This document shows positions 5,340 through 58,247 of a stretch of 64,000 nucleotides of DNA, one piece after another. This DNA is from a phage. The notes under the pieces were generated by a model. That model had not been told where the DNA came from. It did no database searches and was given only the letters and a program-made list of their open reading frames with translations. How positions within the stretch are numbered: the first letter of the stretch is position 1; the number at the start of each line of letters is the position of its first letter. Location of the stretch: the sequence record PZ445450.1. One strand, written 5' to 3'. Made by a program: the position numbers and the translations under genes.

Positions 5340-6383
5340 ATGACTAAACCAGTTATCCCTCTTGATATTTGGGCCAATCAGGATGTTGTGCTTGAAAATA
5401 CGGGAGAGTTGAATAAATCTCAACCAAAAAAAGAAGAGAGATTGAAAGGTTGGGATATGACACAAAGAATGGCATGTGAAGTTGTTAACTTTGAACTTCA
5501 CATGCTTTCTGCGTGGTTGAAGCATTTAACAGAAGATGTTGTCCCAGGATGGGATAATAGATTCTTAAGGGTCACTAATAATCTAGCAGACGTTCCAGAC
5601 AAAGCTGCTGCACGTCAAGTTCTCAATGTATACTCACCTGAAGAAATGGACGATCTATATGTTGACAAGTCTGGAGACATAATGACTCAGACTCAAACTT
5701 TAGGTCTTCAAAGAATCGAGTTTGCATCTGCGTCAACAGACAGTGCGGCAATATATACCACCATAACTCCAGACAAGACGACGATGGATTTCTGGATTAT
5801 GGACAACATCGGTGGTGCTGACGGCACAGACCTTGATGATCCTTCTCACCAAATAGATGGGTTCCGTTGGAGATTTCAACCTTCTGGTGGGCAGCCTGTG
5901 TTTTCAGCTATGAAGCTCAATGCTATAACTGCCAACCGTGCAAGACTGGCTATCCAAGGAAATCTTGAATGCAACGATGCAAAAAGTTCCTCTGCAAATG
6001 CCAATGCGGTCACGATACCAAGAGCCACTGTTAATGGACAACAATCCTGCGGAAGCGCTCAAATAGGTGGAAGAGTTGATTGTAACGATGAAACCGTCAG
6101 GGGCCAATATGCAACAGTTGGTGGAAGAAACGTGGTCCGCAGGGTAAATGGTAACGGCGCAGACAGTAGCGGTAACCTTACTATCCCTATGCCTAGCAGA
6201 GGGGTTGATGATGTAAGGATAGCAAACCGTTTTAAAACCACCTACAGAGAGTCAAGAGTCTACCCTGGACATGTGATGTGCTCTGGTAACTACGCTTATA
6301 AACACCCTTATCAAGGTGATTACTGGACAGGTGCTATCCAAAAACTTGTAAATGGTCAATGGATCACTATATCTTATGCTTAA
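5340..6383 (+). CDS. Tail fibre protein, paralog B
   Basis: ATG at 5340 after AGGAGA (track start 5337 is GTG); N-terminus PLDIWANQD.. and C-terminus LVNGQWITISYA conserved with paralog A, middle divergent. Confidence 0.65.
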   Translation: MTKPVIPLDIWANQDVVLENTGELNKSQPKKEERLKGWDMTQRMACEVVNFELHMLSAWLKHLTEDVVPGWDNRFLRVTNNLADVPDKAAARQVLNVYSPEEMDDLYVDKSGDIMTQTQTLGLQRIEFASASTDSAAIYTTITPDKTTMDFWIMDNIGGADGTDLDDPSHQIDGFRWRFQPSGGQPVFSAMKLNAITANRARLAIQGNLECNDAKSSSANANAVTIPRATVNGQQSCGSAQIGGRVDCNDETVRGQYATVGGRNVVRRVNGNGADSSGNLTIPMPSRGVDDVRIANRFKTTYRESRVYPGHVMCSGNYAYKHPYQGDYWTGAIQKLVNGQWITISYA

Positions 6384-6394
6384 AAAGAGGGTAA

Positions 6395-6661
6395 ATGAAA
6401 CTAACTCAGTTTTTATGGGGACTGGTTGCGGCATCTGATGACCCTACGAAAGTGTCCCAATCTAAGCTATGGTCGAACATAGGCATGGCGGTGATGACTG
6501 GGGTGTTTATTCATATGGGGTATAATGATACGCTTCCTGAATGGTATGCGTGGATATACGCGCCTTCAGTAGCTTGCCCCCAGCTTATTAGCAAATTCAT
6601 CTCGCTCCGGTGGGGTTGCCAGCACCCTGACCACGTTAAAAACGAAGAGCAAAAAGCTTAA
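6395..6661 (+). CDS. Small hydrophobic protein, unknown function
   Basis: 88-aa ORF between fibre genes with hydrophobic segments; possible fibre accessory protein; no motif recognised. Confidence 0.4.
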   Translation: MKLTQFLWGLVAASDDPTKVSQSKLWSNIGMAVMTGVFIHMGYNDTLPEWYAWIYAPSVACPQLISKFISLRWGCQHPDHVKNEEQKA

Positions 6662-45693: not shown

Positions 45694-46005
45694 TATTTTT
45701 AAGTTATCAGGTTGCTAGAGATCAGGAGGATTTCTAAAATGGATTTCCTCCTTTTGATATTTCACCGGACCAGATATTTTAAAATTCTTAGAAAATCAGA
45801 AAATGGATCGAAAACTAAAATGGATTTTTCAGAGTAGGCGCGACAAGCTGAATCGCTCATCCTATCGTTTGCACCATATTCTAGACCACCATTACAGATT
45901 TCCCGCACATGCTCACATCCTTCTACTAGAACTTCCTCCACTTACCCTTGACTTTTTATGGTAATAGTCTAACCACTATCTTGAGGTTGCGGTACAGCTT
46001 TCCGG

Positions 46006-46170
46006 GTACTCGATCTGTTTTTCGTTTCAAAGATTGAATTTTCTGAAAATTTTTCTCGATAAATTTCTCAGTACTCGATCTGTTTTTCGTTTTCTGAATC
46101 GGATTTTCTGGAAATCGTTCCGGAGCTCGACCTGAAATTTTTGGGGACGAAATCGATTTTTCGTTTTCAG
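46006..46170. repeat. Imperfect direct repeats with about 65-bp period
   Basis: GTACTCGATCTGTTTTTCGTTT at 46006 and 46071, related CGATTTTTCGTTTTC at 46154; AAATGGATTTTT motif recurs in the region. Confidence 0.6.
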
Positions 46171-46242
46171 AAATGGATTTTTAAAATTTCTATATGGGAA
46201 TATTTTATAGGATACTGTTTTATAGGAAATTGTTACGGAGGG

Positions 46243-47627: not shown

Positions 47628-47675
47628 ATACACAAAAGGCGGGAATGTTTCCCGCCAACACAAAGGAAAAAGATC

Positions 47676-48071
47676 ATGAATAAGAACGTACGCCGCATCA
47701 TGAACGAACTGGCAAACGATGAAAAAATTATTGACATGCATTTAGTCAACATTTGCCGCCGTTGTGTAACATATAACAACCGCGCCGCAAAAGCGCGTGA
47801 GATGAACGCAAAAGGCACCTTAAAGCCTTTTCAGGTGGTTGTAAAATCTATAACTAATGCAGCAGGCCAGGCGCATGACCACAACAACGAGAGCACTAAT
47901 ATTGATCCGTCTTACGTAATGAAACGGATCCGGACTTGCAAGAATAAAGAGCAGGTGTATAACGTCATAGATTGGCTGGACTCCCTGGGCGATGTGGTTT
48001 ACAATAGGTTTTCTGCAGCCATCGAGATCCAGCTTGACAGATTGGACGGGAAAGTACTAAAAACTTATTGA
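47676..48071 (+). CDS. Early protein, unknown function
   Basis: 131-aa ORF; leader ..CCAACACAAAGGAAAAAGATC ATG. Confidence 0.5.
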   Translation: MNKNVRRIMNELANDEKIIDMHLVNICRRCVTYNNRAAKAREMNAKGTLKPFQVVVKSITNAAGQAHDHNNESTNIDPSYVMKRIRTCKNKEQVYNVIDWLDSLGDVVYNRFSAAIEIQLDRLDGKVLKTY

Positions 48072-48082
48072 GTTTATTTTTA

Positions 48083-48119
48083 GATGGCCTTGACTCCAGG
48101 GCCATCAATAAAGTAAACT
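48083..48119 (+). repeat. Conserved hairpin-promoter repeat, copy 1
   Basis: GATGGCC-TTGACTCCAG-GGCCATC hairpin holding TTGACT, then AATAAAGTAAACT; near-identical at 48704 and 52448. Confidence 0.6.
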
Positions 48120-48151
48120 AACCACAATTAAGCGGAAAAGGAGGCTTAAAG

Positions 48152-48271
48152 ATGAGCACTACACGCCAGCACACAAAGGTAACTATTATCGTTTGCATCA
48201 TTGGTTACATCCTGGCGCAAATGTTGATGGGTAGCGCCAACGGTGTAGCAAAATTTTTCTTAAACTTTTAA
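48152..48271 (+). CDS. Small hydrophobic peptide (39 aa)
   Basis: RBS AAAAGGAGG; VTIIVCIIGYILAQMLMG. Confidence 0.35.
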   Translation: MSTTRQHTKVTIIVCIIGYILAQMLMGSANGVAKFFLNF

Positions 48272-48299
48272 TTGACAAGCTAACTTAGATCAGTATACT
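48272..48299 (+). promoter_or_regulatory. Sigma70-like early promoter
   Basis: TTGACA-N16-TATACT. Confidence 0.6.
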
Positions 48300-48350
48300 A
48301 AGCACATAGACGGGAAAACTTCCCCAGACACACGAAAGGAGAAAAACACC

Positions 48351-48692
48351 ATGACTACTATGACCGCCGAAGAAAAAGCCCTGCAGATCGCCGCTCTGAA
48401 AAAACAGATCGCAGACCTTGAGAATAAGATCGATAACTTTGAAATCGACGAGGACAAGTACGACGAAAACTATGATGAATGGCTAGACGAGGTTTATGGC
48501 GAAATTATGATCGGAAACATTTCTTTTCTTCCGTCGCGTATCCTCAAGGAGTTAGATCCTATCGCTTACCGCTGCGGATTTAGCGACTACATCGACAGCC
48601 TGGATATTGAGGACGATGAAGAATACCGGGAATTACAGACAGAGTTGGAAGAAGCAAAAGAAGAGCTTGCGGAGCTGGAAGAAAACGAGTAA
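48351..48692 (+). CDS. Highly acidic early protein (113 aa)
   Basis: About one third Asp/Glu with coiled-coil segments; strong promoter and AAAGGAGA RBS. Confidence 0.5.
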   Translation: MTTMTAEEKALQIAALKKQIADLENKIDNFEIDEDKYDENYDEWLDEVYGEIMIGNISFLPSRILKELDPIAYRCGFSDYIDSLDIEDDEEYRELQTELEEAKEELAELEENE

Positions 48693-48703
48693 GATTATTT
48701 TTA

Positions 48704-48740
48704 GATGGCCTTGACTCCAGGGCCATCAATAAAGTAAACT
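48704..48740 (+). repeat. Conserved hairpin-promoter repeat, copy 2
   Basis: Same GATGGCCTTGACTCCAGGGCCATC..AAAGTAAACT element. Confidence 0.6.
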
Positions 48741-48781
48741 TTATACTGTTAACACTGAACTAATGCATAGGAGTTAAAACC

Positions 48782-49027
48782 ATGGCAGCACTAATCACTA
48801 AATATTACGCCCCTACCAACACCAAAAGCGCCCGTATCATGGTAAAAGGCTTCGGACGTAAAAAGGTTTACACCTGGGATTATGCCTTAGACACGGAAGA
48901 CAACTACACCAACGCGATGACAGATTTTATTAATGAGCTGAACACGCGGATCTTGACAAATTATAAAATTACCGATATTGCCTATATAGGGGAAGGCGGG
49001 ATCTGTTTTGTCGGTATCGTCAAATAA
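48782..49027 (+). CDS. Early protein, unknown function
   Basis: 81-aa ORF after repeat copy 2. Confidence 0.45.
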   Translation: MAALITKYYAPTNTKSARIMVKGFGRKKVYTWDYALDTEDNYTNAMTDFINELNTRILTNYKITDIAYIGEGGICFVGIVK

Positions 49028-49103
49028 ACTGTTTTTTCGGTGGTCCTGGTAGCAGGGCCATCTATAAAGATAGTTTATCAATACAATGAAAGGAGAAAGT
49101 AAC

Positions 49104-49451
49104 ATGATCAGTGGGGCAAGTTTTATTATTGGCGCTATTGCTACGGCTTTAATTGTAAACAAGATCCAATCTAAAAACGAAAAAGAGAGCAACGCGCTCA
49201 CAGAATACCCATTTTGGATATTCAACGACAATGAAGACTACATTATCAAGTACAAGAATGAGAAGGGCGACCAGGTAACACCGCGACCGATCCCGGCCTA
49301 CAAGATGCAAGAAACACTATACCGCCTAAAGGCTGGAGGCGCAAAAATCGTAGACTTTTGGGGATATGATTGCAAGGATCAGGAGGTTATAAAACGGCGT
49401 ATCCGGGCTATTCAGGCCAATATTGAAGTTAGCAAGGGGGGGAATATATGA
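49104..49451 (+). CDS. Early protein with N-terminal hydrophobic helix
   Basis: ATG 49104 after AAGGAGAAAG; N-terminus ISGASFIIGAIATALIV. Confidence 0.45.
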   Translation: MISGASFIIGAIATALIVNKIQSKNEKESNALTEYPFWIFNDNEDYIIKYKNEKGDQVTPRPIPAYKMQETLYRLKAGGAKIVDFWGYDCKDQEVIKRRIRAIQANIEVSKGGNI

Positions 49452-49645
49452 AGATTAATTTTGAGAAGATTGTAAAGCGATCTCATGTTTCCGAAGAGCT
49501 GCCGGAACGACGCCAGCGTAACAATAAACTGAATAAGCCAAAAAGATTTGGAAAGATCTGGCGAAATCATTATGATCGTAAATTGCCTGGCCTACTTTTG
49601 GAACGTGAACGACAGGCAGAACGATACCGCCATAAAGACAAATAA
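49448..49645 (+). CDS. Small basic protein
   Basis: 65-aa Lys/Arg-rich ORF overlapping upstream stop. Confidence 0.4.
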   Translation: MKINFEKIVKRSHVSEELPERRQRNNKLNKPKRFGKIWRNHYDRKLPGLLLERERQAERYRHKDK

Positions 49646-49653
49646 CAACCAAC

Positions 49654-49683
49654 GCCCCGCCATTGTGCGGGGCTTTTTATTTC
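49654..49683 (+). terminator. Rho-independent terminator
   Basis: Stem GCCCCGC/GCGGGGC, loop CATTGT, then TTTTTATTTC. Confidence 0.7.
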
Positions 49684-49826
49684 TATCCTACGAATAGCGC
49701 CCCTGGTTGGCCCTGTAAGCGCCAAAAAGGCCCCACCTATGCAATCGCCCCCCTTTAACCTGAAAACATCGCTTAGGGCCGTTTTATGGCGTTAAAAATA
49801 TCATTGACAGTGATTTTATTTAAAGC

Positions 49827-49854
49827 TTGACATCTTAAACAGGTTAGCTATACT
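49827..49854 (+). promoter_or_regulatory. Sigma70-like early promoter
   Basis: TTGACA-N16-TATACT; second TTGACA at 49804. Confidence 0.6.
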
Positions 49855-49886
49855 AACCACATCAAAGAGAGAAAGGAGTAAACGCC

Positions 49887-50147
49887 ATGCGTAAATTAAA
49901 AAATTTTGATAAAGTTGATGTTGTCCTGAATAATTTTTACTACTGCAACAACAAGGCCATTTGGTGGCGTGATAGTTCCACCGATAAAGTCAAGGCGCGC
50001 TTTCTCCAGGGGCACTGGCAAGGCCGCCCAGTGATTAAAATCATGGGGCAATTGGTAGCGTTTAAAAATTGCCGCCGTGTTGATGACGTTGAGGAGATTT
50101 TAAACATTTTGCGCCACAATAATTTAAAAAATAGTGTTGACAAGTAA
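49887..50147 (+). CDS. Early protein, unknown function
   Basis: 86-aa ORF; 3' end overlaps next promoter. Confidence 0.45.
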   Translation: MRKLKNFDKVDVVLNNFYYCNNKAIWWRDSSTDKVKARFLQGHWQGRPVIKIMGQLVAFKNCRRVDDVEEILNILRHNNLKNSVDK

Positions 50148-50164
50148 ATCTCAATAAGTATAAT
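50137..50164 (+). promoter_or_regulatory. Sigma70-like early promoter
   Basis: TTGACA-N16-TATAAT, then 5' hairpin GGCGGGAAAACTTACCGCC. Confidence 0.65.
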
Positions 50165-50221
50165 TAAACACACAGGCGGGAAAACTTACCGCCACTAACA
50201 AAGAAAACAGGAGAAAATATC

Positions 50222-50845
50222 ATGACCACCGTTAACATTACCACAGGTTACAATTTATCTTTCGACGTGCTGACCGACGAACAAAAAGAAAAAGCCATTG
50301 AAATGGTACGCGAAAGAGAAGAACACAGCGGGGATGACTTTTTTGCAGAAAGTGTAATTGAACACTACAAAGAATATATCTTTCCAGAGTACGGCCTTGA
50401 AGATACCGAAGTACATTGGTCCGGCTTTTGGTGCCAGGGTGACGGCGCGTCAATCAGTGCTGAAAACGTGGATTTAGAAAAATTTTTGCGTAAAGTAAAG
50501 GCCCTGACCAAGTTCCGATCAATTCGTCACTTGTTCGGCACAATGCACGATGGCGAGTTATCAGCCAGTGTTGAACGCGACAAGTACAGCCATTACAGCC
50601 ATGAAAACACTGTAAGCGGATACATTGATACCACCTGGCTAGATCTGACCGCCAAACAAGAAAACAAAGTGGAAGACCTGGAAGAGCTGATCACCGAGAC
50701 GGTACGGGAGCTATCCCGCAAGGTTTACGTAGACCTGGAGGAGGCCTATCTAGAACAGTTCACTACCGAAAACCTGATCGGCCTTATTGAGGCCAATGAT
50801 TGGCGGTTTGATGTGGATGAATATGGAGAGATGAGTTTTTCATAA
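50222..50845 (+). CDS. Acidic early protein (207 aa), unknown function
   Basis: ORF with CAGGAGA RBS; Glu/Asp-rich. Confidence 0.5.
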   Translation: MTTVNITTGYNLSFDVLTDEQKEKAIEMVREREEHSGDDFFAESVIEHYKEYIFPEYGLEDTEVHWSGFWCQGDGASISAENVDLEKFLRKVKALTKFRSIRHLFGTMHDGELSASVERDKYSHYSHENTVSGYIDTTWLDLTAKQENKVEDLEELITETVRELSRKVYVDLEEAYLEQFTTENLIGLIEANDWRFDVDEYGEMSFS

Positions 50846-50853
50846 ATAAAGTG

Positions 50854-50881
50854 TTGCAATAATCTAAAAACCTGCTATATT
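50854..50881 (+). promoter_or_regulatory. Sigma70-like early promoter
   Basis: TTGCAA-N16-TATATT, then hairpin GGGGCAAGACGTTTGCCCC. Confidence 0.5.
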
Positions 50882-50934
50882 AAAACTCAAGGGGGCAAGA
50901 CGTTTGCCCCACACAAAACAAAGAGGAAAACATT

Positions 50935-51315
50935 ATGAAAAACACTACTAAAGCTATTGACACCGTTATGTTTAACCTGGTTACCTTTCGCGAGGATATG
51001 AAAGATCTTCCACGTGAAACAGTGTGCGATCACATTGAAAACTATCGCAAACTAATCAAAGAGTTGCCTTTAAAACGTGACCAGTATGCGGCTAACGCTA
51101 TGCTCAACGCCATGATCAAAAAGATGATTCAGTGTGATTTAACCCTGGCCTATGATTATGCAGGTGGTCGTTTTGCAGTATACAATCAGCCCGTGCCTGG
51201 TATGGGCACCACTGAAGAATTGCACGCGCTCAATCTAAAACAAGACGTGTGGGATAGTATGCCCCGCGTGGTGGTGTGGGCAGAAAGCGGAAAGATTTAC
51301 GGCGATAATTTTTAA
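50935..51315 (+). CDS. Early protein, unknown function
   Basis: 126-aa ORF with AAGAGGAAAA RBS. Confidence 0.5.
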   Translation: MKNTTKAIDTVMFNLVTFREDMKDLPRETVCDHIENYRKLIKELPLKRDQYAANAMLNAMIKKMIQCDLTLAYDYAGGRFAVYNQPVPGMGTTEELHALNLKQDVWDSMPRVVVWAESGKIYGDNF

Positions 51316-51324
51316 TCAGGTAAC

Positions 51325-51351
51325 AGGCGGCATATTTGCCGCCTTATTGTT
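51325..51351 (+). terminator. Rho-independent terminator
   Basis: Stem AGGCGGCA/TGCCGCCT, loop TATT, then TATTGTT. Confidence 0.6.
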
Positions 51352-51379
51352 AAACAGAACTGCAAAAGAGGTACATAGA

Positions 51380-51751
51380 ATGGAATTTATTATTTTGGCC
51401 GTATTAGTTGCCTTGTTTAACGCCTGGATCGCTGGCAAGATGGGTAGATCCGCCTTTTTATGGTTTATTATATCTATTTTCCTGGGGGTGGTTGCAACTA
51501 TTGTACTTGTTATCCTTGCAATTGTTGACAAAGGCGATAATAGAAAGGGTAAAGTATTTTCCGACCTGTATGACGCGCAAACATTTGTCAACGCCTATTA
51601 TAGTGATCTTCCAGTCTCCCTACGCTGCAGCCTTGCACAACAGGTTTTCGATGAAGCTAAAACCAGAGATCACGCCCATGAGATTTGTTTAACTGAGGCG
51701 GATCGCCTATTTGAGAGGAATAGAAAATATGTGGGCCAGCCGTTTAAATAA
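51380..51751 (+). CDS. Membrane protein
   Basis: ATG 51380 after AAAGAGG; two hydrophobic helices FIILAVLVALFNAWIAG and LWFIISIFLGVVATIVLVILAIV. Confidence 0.45.
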   Translation: MEFIILAVLVALFNAWIAGKMGRSAFLWFIISIFLGVVATIVLVILAIVDKGDNRKGKVFSDLYDAQTFVNAYYSDLPVSLRCSLAQQVFDEAKTRDHAHEICLTEADRLFERNRKYVGQPFK

Positions 51752-51974
51752 TACCACGTTAATTAATCCCTTTGATGAAGATTTGAAGCCAGCCGCCTGG
51801 CGTGATGGATTCAATAACGAACGCTTTATTTTCAGGCCTGATCTTAAGGAATTTTATAACAATGGATCGAACAACGACAGAGATAATTTTTCTTGTGATG
51901 TGCGTGGTGATGGTACTCCTGGGGGCCATTGTAAACCACGTCACTACTACCAGGATGAAAGGGGGAGACGATGA
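51729..51974 (+). CDS. Hypothetical protein
   Basis: ATG 51729 after GAGGAA; overlaps neighbours. Confidence 0.35.
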   Translation: MWASRLNNTTLINPFDEDLKPAAWRDGFNNERFIFRPDLKEFYNNGSNNDRDNFSCDVRGDGTPGGHCKPRHYYQDERGRR

Positions 51975-52090
51975 CAACCAAGGATAAGCCCCGCACCGAT
52001 AAGGTGCGCCGGGTTATGGTATGGCTTGAGATCATCGCCCTTGAAATATTGTTAGGCGTAGGGATGTATTTTATCGCTGTAAGTAACTGA
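51971..52090 (+). CDS. Small membrane peptide (39 aa, not in ORF track)
   Basis: ATGA overlap with upstream stop; WLEIIALEILLGVGMYFIAV. Confidence 0.3.
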   Translation: MTTKDKPRTDKVRRVMVWLEIIALEILLGVGMYFIAVSN

Positions 52091-52094
52091 TAAC

Positions 52095-52125
52095 GGCCCC
52101 CGATCCCTGGGGGCCTAACTTTTTC
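52095..52125 (+). terminator. Rho-independent terminator
   Basis: Stem GGCCCCC/GGGGGCC, loop GATCCCT, then TAACTTTTTC. Confidence 0.65.
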
Positions 52126-52147
52126 AAAAAATTTTTCTTCCGGGGTG

Positions 52148-52175
52148 TTGCAATCCGGTCCGAAATATGGATAAT
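52148..52175 (+). promoter_or_regulatory. Sigma70-like promoter, TTGCA-type
   Basis: TTGCAA-N16-GATAAT preceded by TG; same ATATGGATAAT box as promoter at 53314. Confidence 0.5.
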
Positions 52176-52234
52176 AATAATAATCAACGGGGAGCTAATC
52201 CCCACCAACACAAAAACCAGAAAGGAGAAACAAA

Positions 52235-52435
52235 ATGAGCAACAATATCCGCGTTATTAACTTCAAAAAAGAAGAAAAAATTGCCGTGCTGATTGACGGT
52301 CAAGAAATCTTCAAGGGCGACTATGAAGATCATCAAACGGCGATTAGTATCACTCGCGTGATTGGTTACCATAATTTTTACCCCCAAGGCGCTGAGGCAG
52401 CTGTTAAACGAATCAAAGAGATTGTAGGCCTGTAA
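52235..52435 (+). CDS. Small early protein
   Basis: 66-aa ORF; leader hairpin GGGGAGCTAATCCCC + CCAACACAAAAACC + AAAGGAGA. Confidence 0.5.
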   Translation: MSNNIRVINFKKEEKIAVLIDGQEIFKGDYEDHQTAISITRVIGYHNFYPQGAEAAVKRIKEIVGL

Positions 52436-52447
52436 AATTTATTTTTA

Positions 52448-52484
52448 GATGGCCTTGACTCCAGGGCCATCAATAAAGTAAATT
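52448..52484 (+). repeat. Conserved hairpin-promoter repeat, copy 3
   Basis: GATGGCCTTGACTCCAGGGCCATC..AAAGTAAATT. Confidence 0.6.
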
Positions 52485-53196: not shown

Positions 53197-53232
53197 GGCC
53201 CCCGGCAGGGCCTACAGCGATATAATCATCTA

Positions 53233-53266
53233 AAGGCTATGCAACCGCATGGCCTTTATTATTTTG
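53233..53266 (+). terminator. Rho-independent terminator
   Basis: 10-bp stem AAGGCTATGC/GCATGGCCTT, loop AACC, then TATTATTTT. Confidence 0.6.
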
Positions 53267-53313
53267 GCGTTACAGCGGCCCCAAGGCGCTTAAAAATTTT
53301 TTTAAAGAAGTGC

Positions 53314-53744: not shown

Positions 53745-53981
53745 ATGATTGAACAAATTAAAAGCACTAAACCGAACGTTAACGGCAATGTTTCTCACTT
53801 TATTGGTGATAATGAAAGAGGGACACCGTACGCTGCGGTAACAGTTCAACCGAACGGGGATTATTGGTTTACTGTATACGGATCTTATTCTTTTGGGCGT
53901 CCGGTGCATGATAGAATTTTAAAAGTAGCTAATCCGACCGGGAAGAATATCACAGCAGAAAAATTTTTTGAAAATAGTTGA
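53745..53981 (+). CDS. Early protein, unknown function
   Basis: 78-aa ORF with AGAGGGG RBS. Confidence 0.45.
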   Translation: MIEQIKSTKPNVNGNVSHFIGDNERGTPYAAVTVQPNGDYWFTVYGSYSFGRPVHDRILKVANPTGKNITAEKFFENS

Positions 53982-57334: not shown

Positions 57335-58046
57335 TGCTCTTCTCCTACCATAAACGGCCCTACCTGGCAAGTGGAATAATTGACTAGCCATCAATCCCAC
57401 ATACTGTACAAATATACATGGAAAATAACTATTGCATAATCTTTCATTGTGCGGTAGCAGGGCCATTTTTACCCGTTTTCTCTCCCAAAAGTGCACGTAA
57501 TGCCGCTATTGCACAAATTTTAACCTGATGCACATATCCAATATCTTGTCAACAACTAAAAATCTTTATAAGTCATACACTTATACAGCATCGAAAGCGT
57601 GTTCTACGTGAAAAATCGAGTATAACTATAGCCGCCAGATCTCAGAATTCACGTACGCACGCCATTCTATAGCCTGCAAAGTATTTATTCCAACCACAGA
57701 ATAACGGAATAGTCAATACCTGCATAAAATAATTATTCGTGTAAACTGCATAACATAAATCAGCTCAGGTGTCAACATTTTTCGTAAACAGTCCGAAATT
57801 ATCACGATGAGTTATCATAAACAGAGAAATCTTTAGTCGTCTAATGTTTACTGTACATTACTATACTGACTGGAATCATTAGATGACTAAGAAAAAGATA
57901 AGAAATAATTAATAATGTAATTGTTTTATCTGTAACAATAAGGCAACCATGCAAACGAATGTCATGGCGCGACGGAGTCGCGACATAATATAAAAGCAGT
58001 AACCATCACCCCCGTGATAGTTTGTCTGCAATCTATTATTCAGATC

Positions 58047-58118
58047 ATAGTTGCCTTGTATTTAGTTAATCATGACATAACAAGCAAGGCAACTATAGCT
58101 CTGATAATAGTTGCCCTG
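58047..58118. repeat. 12-bp inverted repeat pair plus a direct copy
   Basis: ATAGTTGCCTTG (58047) / CAAGGCAACTAT (58085) with 26-bp spacer; direct variant ATAGTTGCCCTG at 58107. Confidence 0.6.
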
Positions 58119-58247
58119 CTTTTATATTATGTCATAGATTGTTAGCTTGTTAACTGTCAGCCTGTTGGCTGTTAGCTTGTCAATTATTAAATTGCTAATC
58201 TTTATCATGCAAACGAATGTCATGGCTTATCATCTCTGTGTAAACAG

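What the first reader, a model, noticed from the sequence alone, without database searches (positions are those of the whole stretch)
48083..52484. Three near-identical hairpin elements embedding a -35 hexamer
GATGGCC-TTGACTCCAG-GGCCATC followed by AATAAAGTAAACT occurs at 48083, 48704 and 52448 (degenerate copy near 49042), always just after a stop codon. A T-run precedes rather than follows the stem, so they are not classical intrinsic terminators; the loop carries TTGACT at promoter spacing to TAAACT, suggesting a combined processing/terminator-promoter module.
Basis: seen in the sequence. Interest (0 to 1): 0.5.

Follow-up and report, generated by a model that had tools for sequence, protein, structure and literature searches.

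The report
T7-style RNA processing hairpins in phage
Four copies of a roughly 50-base RNA hairpin sit between early genes of an rV5-like E. coli phage; they closely resemble the sites where the host enzyme RNase III cuts phage T7 early messages, and they also mark where small gene cassettes are gained, lost and swapped between phages.

Summary
The 24-mer is exact at 48083, 48704 and 52448 (0 expected by chance), with a diverged fourth copy at 49039. All four start at a stop codon.

The hairpin is larger than described:
- a 10-bp upper stem with a tetraloop, so TTG of 'TTGACT' is paired;
- a 2/3-nt internal loop;
- a 10-13 bp A/U lower stem, whose 3' arm is the supposed -10 'TAAACT'.

Across 82 copies (46 distinct) from rV5-like phages, pairing is kept by compensatory and G.U changes. 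It works only on the + strand, so the structure acts as RNA.

A covariance model built only from the five T7 early RNase III sites ranks these four elements first in the window (23-29 bits; background at most 16). Their internal loops (UA/AAU, UC/UAU) match those of T7 R1 and R0.3/R1.1.

Best reading: RNase III-type intercistronic processing and 3'-stabilising signals. They are not terminators.

The repeats are also recombination joints. Three relatives lack the 621-bp cassette between copies 1 and 2. A phi92-like phage carries the promoter-ORF-hairpin cassette.

An overlapping sigma-70 promoter is possible but unproven. No transcript data exist. This is a new member of known kinds (T7 R-sites, PeSL-like cassettes).

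The parts
48071..48119 (+). Hairpin copy 1. Lower stem 48071-48080 / 48110-48119; internal loop UA 48081-82 and AAU 48107-09; upper stem plus tetraloop 48083-48106. Cleavage predicted by T7 analogy between 48109 and 48110. Starts at the last base of the stop codon of ORF 47676-48071.
   Evidence: T7-derived model 28.8 bits, E 1.9e-5
48692..48740 (+). Hairpin copy 2. Upper stem 48704-48727, AAU 48728-30. Predicted cleavage between 48730 and 48731. Follows ORF 48351-48692. One A.A mismatch in the lower stem.
   Evidence: T7-derived model 23.9 bits, E 5e-4
49024..49078 (+). Diverged fourth-type copy. 13-bp lower stem that includes the TAA stop 49025-27; internal loop UC/UAU; upper stem GGUGGUCCUG-GUAG-CAGGGCCAUC at 49039-49062. 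Predicted cleavage between 49065 and 49066. No -35-like hexamer.
   Evidence: (dG -28.2); T7-derived model 23.1 bits, E 9e-4
52436..52484 (+). Hairpin copy 3. Upper stem 52448-52471, AAU 52472-74. Predicted cleavage between 52474 and 52475. Follows ORF 52235-52435. The lower-stem G-C pair is replaced by A-U (AATTTA...TAAATT).
   Evidence: T7-derived model 26.2 bits, E 1.1e-4
48120..48740 (+). 621-bp repeat-to-repeat cassette: 39-aa ORF 48152-48271, consensus sigma-70 promoter 48272-48299, 113-aa ORF 48351-48692, and hairpin copy 2. It is absent from ECP32, phiWec189 and one IMG/VR contig, each of which keeps a single chimeric hairpin.
48271..48745 (+). 475-bp promoter-ORF113-hairpin unit, found at 92.8% identity in the phi92-like phage KKE7M (Stephanstirmvirinae). 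Homology begins at the -35 hexamer and ends at the 3' end of the hairpin.
48090..48119 (+). Sigma-70-like hexamers inside the element: TTGACT, 18 nt, TAAACT. The same arrangement is at 48711-48740, and at 52455-52484 with TAAATT. A possible secondary promoter, not demonstrated.
   Evidence: 9 of 12 match; PhagePromoter calls in the Gotham record

Best explanation
The four elements are intercistronic RNA hairpins in the host-RNA-polymerase-transcribed early region of an rV5-like (Vequintavirus) coliphage. They most likely work like the RNase III processing signals of the phage T7 early region.

Proposed mechanism:
1. Read-through transcripts from the strong upstream sigma-70 promoters fold into a hairpin of roughly two helical turns, interrupted by an asymmetric 2/3-nt internal loop.
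2. Host RNase III cuts once, on the 3' side of that loop. Predicted positions: 48109/10, 48730/31, 49065/66, 52474/75.
3. The upstream message keeps the G+C-rich upper hairpin as a 3' exonuclease barrier. The downstream cistron is released with a new 5' end.

Separately, at the DNA level, the three near-identical 49-bp copies serve as short homologies for recombination. This deletes, inserts and exchanges promoter-ORF-hairpin cassettes within and between phage lineages.

Shown here: the repeat, the RNA-strand-specific conserved structure, its likeness to T7 sites, and the cassette polymorphisms. Inferred: transcription across the sites, cleavage by RNase III, the cleavage positions, and the stabilising effect.
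For: 1. Structure. All four copies fold into lower stem, 2 nt, 10-bp upper stem, tetraloop, 3 nt, lower stem. dG is -21 to -28 kcal/mol and z is -5.5 to -8.

2. Conservation as RNA. 82 copies (46 distinct) come from the window, 15 GenBank rV5-like genomes, KKE7M and rV5-like IMG/VR and metagenome contigs.
- 98.7% of cells are paired, against 93.5% in shuffles (0 of 500 reach the observed value) and 35-55% when the 3' partners are slid.
- Four lower-stem pairs change on both sides (44 cells).
- Five upper-stem pairs vary only between Watson-Crick and G.U.
- There are 119 G.U cells against 8 A.C cells.
- The + strand is more stable in 45 of 46 copies (mean -24.7 against -16.2 kcal/mol).

3. T7 likeness.
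- Folded T7 R0.3, R0.5, R1 and R1.1 share the same layout.
- The main copies have the internal loop 5'UA/3'AAU of T7 R1. The fourth copy has the 5'UC/3'UAU of T7 R0.3 and R1.1.
- Base pairs 2 and 3 from the loop are U-A and U.G, the canonical distal box of R1.1 (PMC1540722).

4. Objective test. A covariance model built only from the five T7 early sites gives the four elements as its top four hits in the 64-kb window.
- The hits are full length, on the + strand only, at 28.8, 26.2, 23.9 and 23.1 bits (E 2e-5 to 9e-4).
- The next window hit is 15.8 bits (53213-53274).
- The best hit in the other 86 kb of rV5 is 11.5 bits.
- The rV5 and KKE7M copies score 23-27 bits. The rV5 homologue of window site 53213 is the highest other hit, at 20.2 bits.
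- The model recovers 8 of 10 annotated T3 RNase III sites at 34-60 bits, and the best unannotated T3 hit is 15.4 bits or less.

5. Context. The copies start at stop codons, are co-oriented with densely packed small early ORFs, and lie downstream of consensus sigma-70 promoters. This is the T7 early-operon situation (PMC3867540). A homologue of T7 gene 1.1 lies about 370 nt downstream of the fourth copy.

6. Recombination. Chimeric single copies with the 621-bp cassette missing occur in ECP32, phiWec189 and an IMG/VR contig. Loop variants are shared between copies within a genome. The promoter-ORF-hairpin unit is found in a phage of another subfamily.
Against: - No transcript-end data exist for any rV5-like phage in the searched literature.
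- Scores of 23-29 bits are well above background but below true T3 homologues (34-60 bits).
- Proximal-box positions 1 and 3 differ from the R1.1 optimum. The fourth copy has C-G rather than U.G in the distal box and G.U at proximal-box position 2, so it may be a weak substrate or bind without being cut (inference from PMC1540722).
- There are only 3-4 sites per genome, all within 4.4 kb, and none in the rest of rV5 or in a Salmonella relative. This is not a genome-wide processing system.
- Gotham's copy 1 carries a 5-bp deletion that destroys the upper stem, so that copy is dispensable or the record contains an error.
- A stable 3' hairpin could stabilise mRNA without RNase III.
Confidence: 0.55

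Rival explanations
1. PeSL-like composite in which the promoter is the main function. The three near-identical copies are early sigma-70 promoters: AT-rich upstream stretch, TTGACT, 18 bp, TAAACT. They drive the next gene, and the overlapping stem-loop merely attenuates or insulates upstream transcription. This is compatible with the best explanation rather than exclusive of it.
For: - The hexamers are present in all three main copies, and TTGAC is conserved in all but one of the main-site copies sampled. Variation falls on the sixth -35 position and beyond.
- PhagePromoter calls copies 2 and 3 in the Gotham record.
- In phi92-like PD114 a hairpin-less homologue reads TTGCAA-16-TAAACT and is followed by the 5'-UTR G+C hairpin typical of this group's promoters.
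- PeSL subclasses have the stem-loop overlapping -35 or -10 and show measured promoter activity (PMC2839356).
- T3 promoters lie inside RNase III sites R6.5 and R13.
Against: - A 9 of 12 match with an 18-bp spacer belongs to a class the scan finds at near-chance frequency (53 against 31.3 expected). The phage's evident promoters score 10-12 of 12, have 16-17 bp spacers and carry a downstream G+C hairpin.
- The fourth copy keeps the hairpin but has no -35.
- -10 position 5 co-varies with the opposite stem arm.
- One lineage has insertions in both unpaired regions. The hairpin stays intact but the spacer becomes 20 bp.
- The rV5 authors' stringent promoter list has none here.
Confidence: 0.3
2. 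An RNA hairpin with another role. Either it is simply a 3'-exonuclease barrier or an RNase E-protective structure that needs no RNase III, or it is an operator bound by a phage or host RNA-binding protein acting as a translational or stability regulator.
For: The conserved, strand-specific RNA structure sits directly after stop codons. The loop and internal-loop bases are fairly conserved at the three main sites. The surrounding early ORFs all have unknown function.
Against: This does not explain the specific match to T7 RNase III sites: identical internal loops, the distal box, and the covariance-model retrieval. No candidate binding protein was identified.
Confidence: 0.2
3. A purely DNA-level element: a recombination or mobility site, or a miniature inverted-repeat element, with no function in RNA.
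For: Repeat-to-repeat deletion, chimeric copies, sharing of loop variants between copies, and transfer of a cassette ending at the element to another phage subfamily.
Against: - Substitutions preserve pairing through G.U on the transcribed strand only: 119 G.U against 8 A.C cells. The - strand folds about 8 kcal/mol worse.
- All copies are co-oriented with the genes.
- The diverged fourth copy keeps the structure at only 65% sequence identity, which homologous recombination would not select.
Confidence: 0.05
4. An intrinsic (Rho-independent) transcription terminator or attenuator.
For: A G+C-rich 10-bp stem in an intergenic position at the 3' end of a moron-like cassette. PeSL stem-loops reduced downstream reporter expression (PMC2839356).
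Against: The stem is followed by AAUAAAGUAAACU, with no U-tract on either strand. The terminator scan does not list it, although it finds canonical terminators nearby at 49654, 52095, 55651 and 57305. It is not annotated as a terminator in rV5 or in the ARNold-annotated Gotham record.
Confidence: 0.03

Closest known systems
RNase III processing signals of the T7/T3 early region (R0.3, R0.5, R1, R1.1, R1.3)
   Same: - Intercistronic hairpins in a host-polymerase polycistronic early transcript.
- A 9-10 bp upper stem with a conserved U.G pair and a tetraloop.
- An asymmetric 2/3-nt internal loop with identical sequences: UA/AAU as in R1, UC/UAU as in R0.3 and R1.1.
- A lower stem.
- Several similar copies per genome.
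- A model trained on the T7 sites retrieves the elements.
- Promoters overlap or adjoin several T3/T7 sites.
   Different: - The host phage is an unrelated 137-kb myovirus.
- BLAST detects no similarity to T7-group sites.
- The lower stem is longer, regular and almost purely A/U.
- Proximal-box positions 1 and 3 differ.
- Scores are lower than for T3 homologues.
- Cleavage has not been tested.
- The copies are near-identical and act as recombination joints.
PeSLs (promoter-early stem-loops) of T4-type phages (Arbiol et al. 2010, PMC2839356; Comeau et al. 2014, PMC4122927)
   Same: - Repeated motifs of roughly 50-100 bp that combine sigma-70-like hexamers, an AT-rich upstream stretch and a stem-loop that may overlap -35 or -10.
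- They are clustered among small ORFans of the early, plastic region.
- Indels between close relatives have their end points in the repeats.
- Promoter-ORF-stem-loop cassettes are shuffled between phages.
   Different: - The host is not a T4-type phage.
- There are only 3-4 copies instead of dozens.
- The stem-loop is a long, interrupted T7-R-site-like hairpin rather than a GGGG/CCCC stem.
- The promoter match is weak (9 of 12, 18-bp spacer) and absent from one family member.
- Mini-circles have not been examined.
Morons of lambdoid phages (promoter-gene-terminator units)
   Same: The 475-bp unit shared with KKE7M is an autonomous promoter-ORF-3' hairpin module inserted between resident genes.
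   Different: The 3' element has no U-tract and looks like a processing site rather than a terminator. The flanking repeat itself appears to mediate the exchange.

Membership tests
T7-type RNase III processing signal | About two helical turns of dsRNA in a hairpin, interrupted by an asymmetric internal loop that limits cutting to one strand | tested here: met
   A 10-bp upper stem, a 2/3-nt internal loop and a 10-13 bp lower stem (7 contiguous pairs in copy 2, which has an A.A mismatch) in all four copies. The layout and internal-loop sequences match T7 R1, R0.3 and R1.1.
T7-type RNase III processing signal | Recognised by a sequence-plus-structure profile of accepted members | tested here: met
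   The model built from the five T7 early sites gives 23.1-28.8 bits, E 2e-5 to 9e-4, as its top four hits in the window. Background is at most 15.8 bits in the window, 11.5 bits in 86 kb of rV5, and 15.4 bits in T3. It finds 8 of 10 annotated T3 sites at 34-60 bits. E-values are rough because calibration was shortened.
T7-type RNase III processing signal | Distal box (U-A then U.G) and proximal box free of G-C at position 2 (Pertzev and Nicholson 2006) | tested here: inconclusive
   Main copies: distal box U-A and U.G at base pairs 2-3 from the loop, as in R1.1, and proximal-box position 2 is A-U. Proximal-box position 1 is U-A (optimum G-C) and position 3 is G-C (optimum A-U). Fourth copy: distal-box position 2 is C-G and proximal-box position 2 is G.U. 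Read from the sequence against PMC1540722.
T7-type RNase III processing signal | Lies within a polycistronic transcript, between cistrons | tested here: met
   Starts at stop codons, 25-44 nt before the next start codon, same strand as all neighbouring ORFs, downstream of consensus promoters and with no terminator in between. Transcription itself is inferred.
T7-type RNase III processing signal | Cleaved by RNase III in vivo and in vitro | not testable with these tools
   No transcriptome or end-mapping data for Vequintavirus were found.
PeSL (promoter-early stem-loop) | Strong sigma-70 consensus promoter with an AT-rich upstream region | tested here: inconclusive
   TTGACT, 18 bp, TAAACT is 9 of 12, with a T-rich stretch upstream. 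It is absent from the fourth copy. The spacer is 20 bp in one lineage. A hairpin-less homologue looks like a real promoter.
PeSL (promoter-early stem-loop) | Stable stem-loop adjoining or overlapping the promoter boxes | tested here: met
PeSL (promoter-early stem-loop) | Repeats flank ORFans in a plastic region and bound indels between close relatives | tested here: met
   The 621-bp cassette is missing, leaving a chimeric repeat, in ECP32, phiWec189 and IMG/VR locus L133. The cassette is shared with KKE7M. The flanking ORFs have no known function.
PeSL (promoter-early stem-loop) | Element of T4-type phage genomes, present in many copies | tested here: not met
   The host is a Vequintavirus. 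There are 3-4 copies per genome, all within 4.4 kb.
Intrinsic terminator | G+C-rich hairpin immediately followed by a U-tract | tested here: not met
   The tail is AAUAAAGU on the + strand and UAAAAAUA on the - strand. The copies are not in the terminator scan.

The most novel reading that the evidence does not exclude
The element is a dual-use module. At the RNA level it is an RNase III processing and stabilising signal with a weak sigma-70 promoter nested inside it, as T3 phi6.5 lies inside R6.5. At the DNA level it is the portable 3' boundary and recombination joint of promoter-ORF-hairpin cassettes that move between unrelated myovirus subfamilies (Vequintavirinae and Stephanstirmvirinae). 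On this reading it is an RNase III-based counterpart of T4 PeSLs, possibly derived from T7-group early regions together with the nearby gene 1.1 homologue.
Probability: 0.25. Interest if true: 0.55.

Novelty: new member of a known kind. Interest (0 to 1): 0.42.

Why it matters
- T7-style RNase III punctuation of early messages would not be confined to T7-like podoviruses. It would also occur, as a small repeat family, in a large group of therapeutic and typing coliphages (rV5-like).
- It offers a concrete, testable handle on how these phages set the stability and stoichiometry of a few early proteins of unknown function.
- The same 49-bp sequence visibly mediates loss, gain and inter-subfamily transfer of small gene cassettes. 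This extends the PeSL idea of 'regulatory cassette as recombination linker' beyond T4-type phages.
- Practically, annotation pipelines currently label these sites as promoters or leave them blank. Assemblies also break at them.

Tried and rejected
- Rfam (E-value mode, 44-58 kb of the window): no relevant family. There were only two sub-threshold chance hits.
- IMG/VR scan with GATGGCC-N10-GGCCATC: the pattern is a palindrome and returned about 120 unrelated contigs, which were not used. A more specific pattern found only rV5-like contigs in IMG/VR and in metagenomes, and nothing in 185,579 bacterial and archaeal genomes.
- BLAST of the element against phage genomes found only about 120 rV5-like records.
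- Search for further copies with family models: none elsewhere in the window, in the other 86 kb of rV5, or in 22 kb of the early region of Salmonella phage SSBI34.
- Pfam and PHROGs on flanking ORFs: all of unknown function.
- Literature: the rV5 genome paper and its supplements do not list the element. No Vequintavirus transcript-end data and no mention of RNase III were found.
- Rejected readings: intrinsic terminator (no U-tract); a 7-bp stem with a 10-nt loop (the stem is 10 bp with a tetraloop); a DNA cruciform or a minus-strand RNA (G.U asymmetry).

Full report
**What the window is.** The 6 kb around the finding is 94-98% identical to about 120 rV5-like coliphage genomes (Vequintavirus, Vequintavirinae). 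The best match is SophiaRose at 97.6%. The finding lies in the early region. This region is a dense run of small, co-oriented ORFs of unknown function, punctuated by consensus sigma-70 promoters on the + strand. It corresponds to rV5 genes gp189-gp172.

**Checking the observation.**
- The 24-mer GATGGCCTTGACTCCAGGGCCATC is exact at 48083, 48704 and 52448. No other match exists at up to 3 mismatches, and there were none in 100 shuffles.
- The repeat extends to 49 nt at 96-100% identity. A fourth copy at 49027-49075 is 65% identical.
- Each copy starts at or inside a stop codon.
- The tail is AATAAAGTAAACT in copies 1 and 2, and ...TAAATT in copy 3.

**The real anatomy.**
- a lower stem of 10-13 A/U-rich pairs, formed by the 'preceding T-run' and the 'following A-rich tail';
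- a 2-nt (5') and 3-nt (3') internal loop;
- a 10-bp upper stem, GAUGGCCUUG/CAGGGCCAUC, containing one U.G pair;
- a tetraloop, ACUC.

dG is -21 to -28 kcal/mol, with z-scores of -5.5 to -8. The opposite strand folds much worse.

Two consequences follow. TTG of the '-35' is base-paired, so only ACU(C) is loop. The '-10' TAAACT is the 3' arm of the lower stem.

**Is the structure selected, and on which strand?**
- Within the window, the fourth copy keeps every pair despite 35% divergence. Four lower-stem pairs changed on both sides. Copy 3's TAAACT to TAAATT change is matched by AGTTTA to AATTTA.
- I then collected 82 copies (46 distinct). They come from the window, 15 GenBank rV5-like genomes, KKE7M, and rV5-like IMG/VR and metagenome contigs.
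- 98.7% of pair cells are standard pairs. Shuffles give 93.5% (0 of 500 reach the observed value), and sliding the 3' partner gives 35-55%.
- Four pairs carry double changes (44 cells). Five upper-stem pairs vary only between Watson-Crick and G.U.
- There are 119 G.U cells against 8 A.C cells. The + strand is more stable in 45 of 46 distinct copies (mean -24.7 against -16.2 kcal/mol).
- A DNA palindrome or a minus-strand RNA would not show this asymmetry. The structure is selected in the + strand transcript.

**Copy number and distribution.**
- Family covariance models find only these four copies in the 64-kb window.
- They find none in the remaining 86 kb of the rV5 genome, and none in 22 kb of the early region of Salmonella phage SSBI34.
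- BLAST and pattern scans find the element only in rV5-like phages and contigs, and not in bacterial genomes.
- The one exception is described under 'The DNA-level role'.

**Not a terminator.** No U-tract follows the stem on either strand. The consensus scan does not list these sites, although it finds canonical terminators close by. Neither the rV5 record nor the ARNold-annotated Gotham record has a terminator there.

**Likeness to T7 RNase III sites.** I folded the five T7 early processing signals from NC_001604. The cleavage coordinates are my recollection of Dunn and Studier 1983; they fall exactly at the 3' end of the predicted 3-nt internal-loop strand.
- The T7 sites show the same layout: a 9-10 bp upper stem with a U.G pair, a tetraloop, a 2/3-nt internal loop and a lower helix.
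- The internal-loop sequences are identical. The three main copies have 5'UA/3'AAU, as in T7 R1. The fourth copy has 5'UC/3'UAU, as in T7 R0.3 and R1.1.
- Base pairs 2 and 3 from the loop are U-A and U.G in the main copies. This is the canonical distal box and a positive recognition determinant for E. coli RNase III in R1.1.
- Proximal-box position 2 is A-U, so the antideterminant is absent. Positions 1 and 3 differ from the optimum (PMC1540722).

**An objective test.** I built a covariance model from the five T7 sites only and scanned the whole window on both strands without filters.
- Its top four hits are exactly the four elements. They are full length, in register, and on the + strand only, at 28.8, 26.2, 23.9 and 23.1 bits (E 2e-5 to 9e-4). 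The next hit is 15.8 bits.
- Negative control: the other 86 kb of rV5 gives at most 11.5 bits.
- The rV5 and KKE7M copies give 23-27 bits. The rV5 homologue of window site 53213 is the highest other hit, at 20.2 bits. SSBI34 gives nothing.
- Positive control: on T3, whose RefSeq record annotates ten RNase III stem-loops, the model recovers eight at 34-60 bits. Its best unannotated hit is 15.4 bits or less.
- The elements therefore score clearly above background and below true T7-group homologues. That is what a non-homologous or very distant functional analogue should do.

**Known biology that fits.** Nicholson's review states that RNase III cuts five signals in the roughly 7-kb polycistronic T7 early precursor. 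It also states that single-strand cleavage at internal loops leaves 3' hairpins that stabilise the product (PMC3867540). One further link is that ORF 49448-49645, about 370 nt downstream of the fourth copy, is a homologue of T7 gene 1.1 (Pfam PF08200, 43.5 bits; 47% identity over 30 residues). In T7 that gene lies immediately after R1.1.

**The DNA-level role.**
- ECP32, phiWec189 and an IMG/VR contig lack the 621 bp between copies 1 and 2 (39-aa ORF, promoter P192, 113-aa ORF). They keep one copy with the left flank of copy 1 and the right flank of copy 2. This is a precise repeat-to-repeat event.
- Loop variants (ACUC, ACAC, ACUU) are shared between copies within a genome, which suggests conversion.
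- KKE7M is a phi92-like Justusliebigvirus of another subfamily. It carries a 475-bp unit that is 92.8% identical to window 48271-48745: promoter, ORF113 and hairpin. Homology starts at the -35 and ends at the 3' end of the hairpin.
- KKE7M's close relatives have the same flanks and promoter, but a different ORF and no hairpin.
- This is the behaviour described for PeSLs in T4-type phages (PMC2839356, PMC4122927).

**The promoter question.**

In favour:
- TTGACT, 18 bp, TAAACT with a T-rich upstream stretch is present in the three main copies. TTGAC is conserved in all but one of the main-site copies sampled.
- PhagePromoter calls copies 2 and 3 in the Gotham record.
- In PD114 the homologous intergenic sequence lacks the palindrome arms. 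It reads TTGCAA-16-TAAACT and is followed by the 5'-UTR G+C hairpin seen after this phage group's obvious promoters.
- T3 has promoters overlapping or inside RNase III sites: E. coli promoter C with R1, phi6.5 in R6.5, and phi13 in R13.

Against:
- A 9 of 12 match with an 18-bp spacer is a class found at near-chance frequency (53 against 31.3 expected). The evident promoters score 10-12 of 12 with 16-17 bp spacers and a downstream hairpin, which the window copies lack.
- The fourth copy has no -35.
- The -10 co-varies with the stem.
- One lineage has 1-nt insertions in both unpaired regions, which preserve the hairpin and lengthen the spacer to 20 bp.
- The rV5 authors' list has no promoter here.

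I put promoter activity of the three main copies at about 0.3. It is not the conserved property of the family.

**Verdict.**
- The most likely mechanism is an RNase III-type intercistronic processing and 3'-stabilising hairpin (confidence 0.55) that doubles as a recombination joint for cassette exchange. The exchange itself is shown by comparative data.
- Nothing was found in the searched literature describing it.
- It is a new member of known kinds, and of moderate interest.

Noticed in passing
window 53231-53258 (model hit 53213-53274); rV5 locus L122 11212-11273: A 12-bp hairpin, AAAGGCUAUGC-AACC-GCAUGGCCUUU, followed by AUUAUUUUGG. It is the next-best hit of the T7 RNase III-site model (15.8 bits here, 20.2 bits in rV5) and shares UGGCCUUUAU with T7 sites. 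It also looks like a terminator. The loop differs between phages (AACC against GGUU).
   Followed up: partly
window 49448-49645 (+): This 65-aa ORF is a homologue of the T7 gene 1.1 protein (Pfam PF08200, 43.5 bits; 47% identity to T7 gp1.1 over 30 residues). It is a T7-group early gene inside an rV5-like myovirus.
   Followed up: partly
window about 47638-47656, 48310-48325 and 50175-50193, and after the promoters at 53978, 54240 and 54515: Most consensus early promoters are followed, about 10 nt after the -10, by a short G+C hairpin (for example GGCGGGAAUGUUUCCCGCC) in the 5' UTR ahead of the ribosome-binding site. This is a conserved leader structure of unknown role; it might stabilise the 5' end.
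   Followed up: no
window 45999-46194: Three tandem-like direct repeats of about 57 nt (TTTC..GTACTCGATCTGTTTTTCGTTT...), spaced 65 and 74 nt apart, in a stretch without convincing ORFs.
   Followed up: no
window 57948-57968 and 58206-58226; hairpins at 57829-57892 and 58041-58104: An identical 21-mer is repeated 258 bp apart. Long perfect hairpins lie in what seems to be the large non-coding region between the divergent early units (rV5 genes 163 and 164).
   Followed up: no
Public records: Seventeen INPHARED records named 'Campylobacter phage' are up to 97% identical to this rV5-like coliphage region (three were listed, at 97.3%), so they are probably mislabelled or contaminants. Several of these assemblies begin or end exactly at the hairpin repeat (C15 at 2-52; C14 and A147 near the record end), so the repeat breaks assemblies.
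   Followed up: no
L124 (phage Gotham, MT682716) 6387-6448: Copy 1 of the hairpin has a 5-bp deletion (GGGCC) that abolishes the upper stem. This is either a natural knock-out of one site or a sequence error.
   Followed up: no
L164 (phage PD114) about 1300-1400 against L145 (KKE7M) 5921-6393: At one locus, phi92-like phages carry alternative ORFs behind the same promoter. The swap end points lie in the promoter/5' UTR on one side and in the AATAAAGTAAAYT motif on the other. This is a second example of cassette replacement at these motifs.
   Followed up: partly
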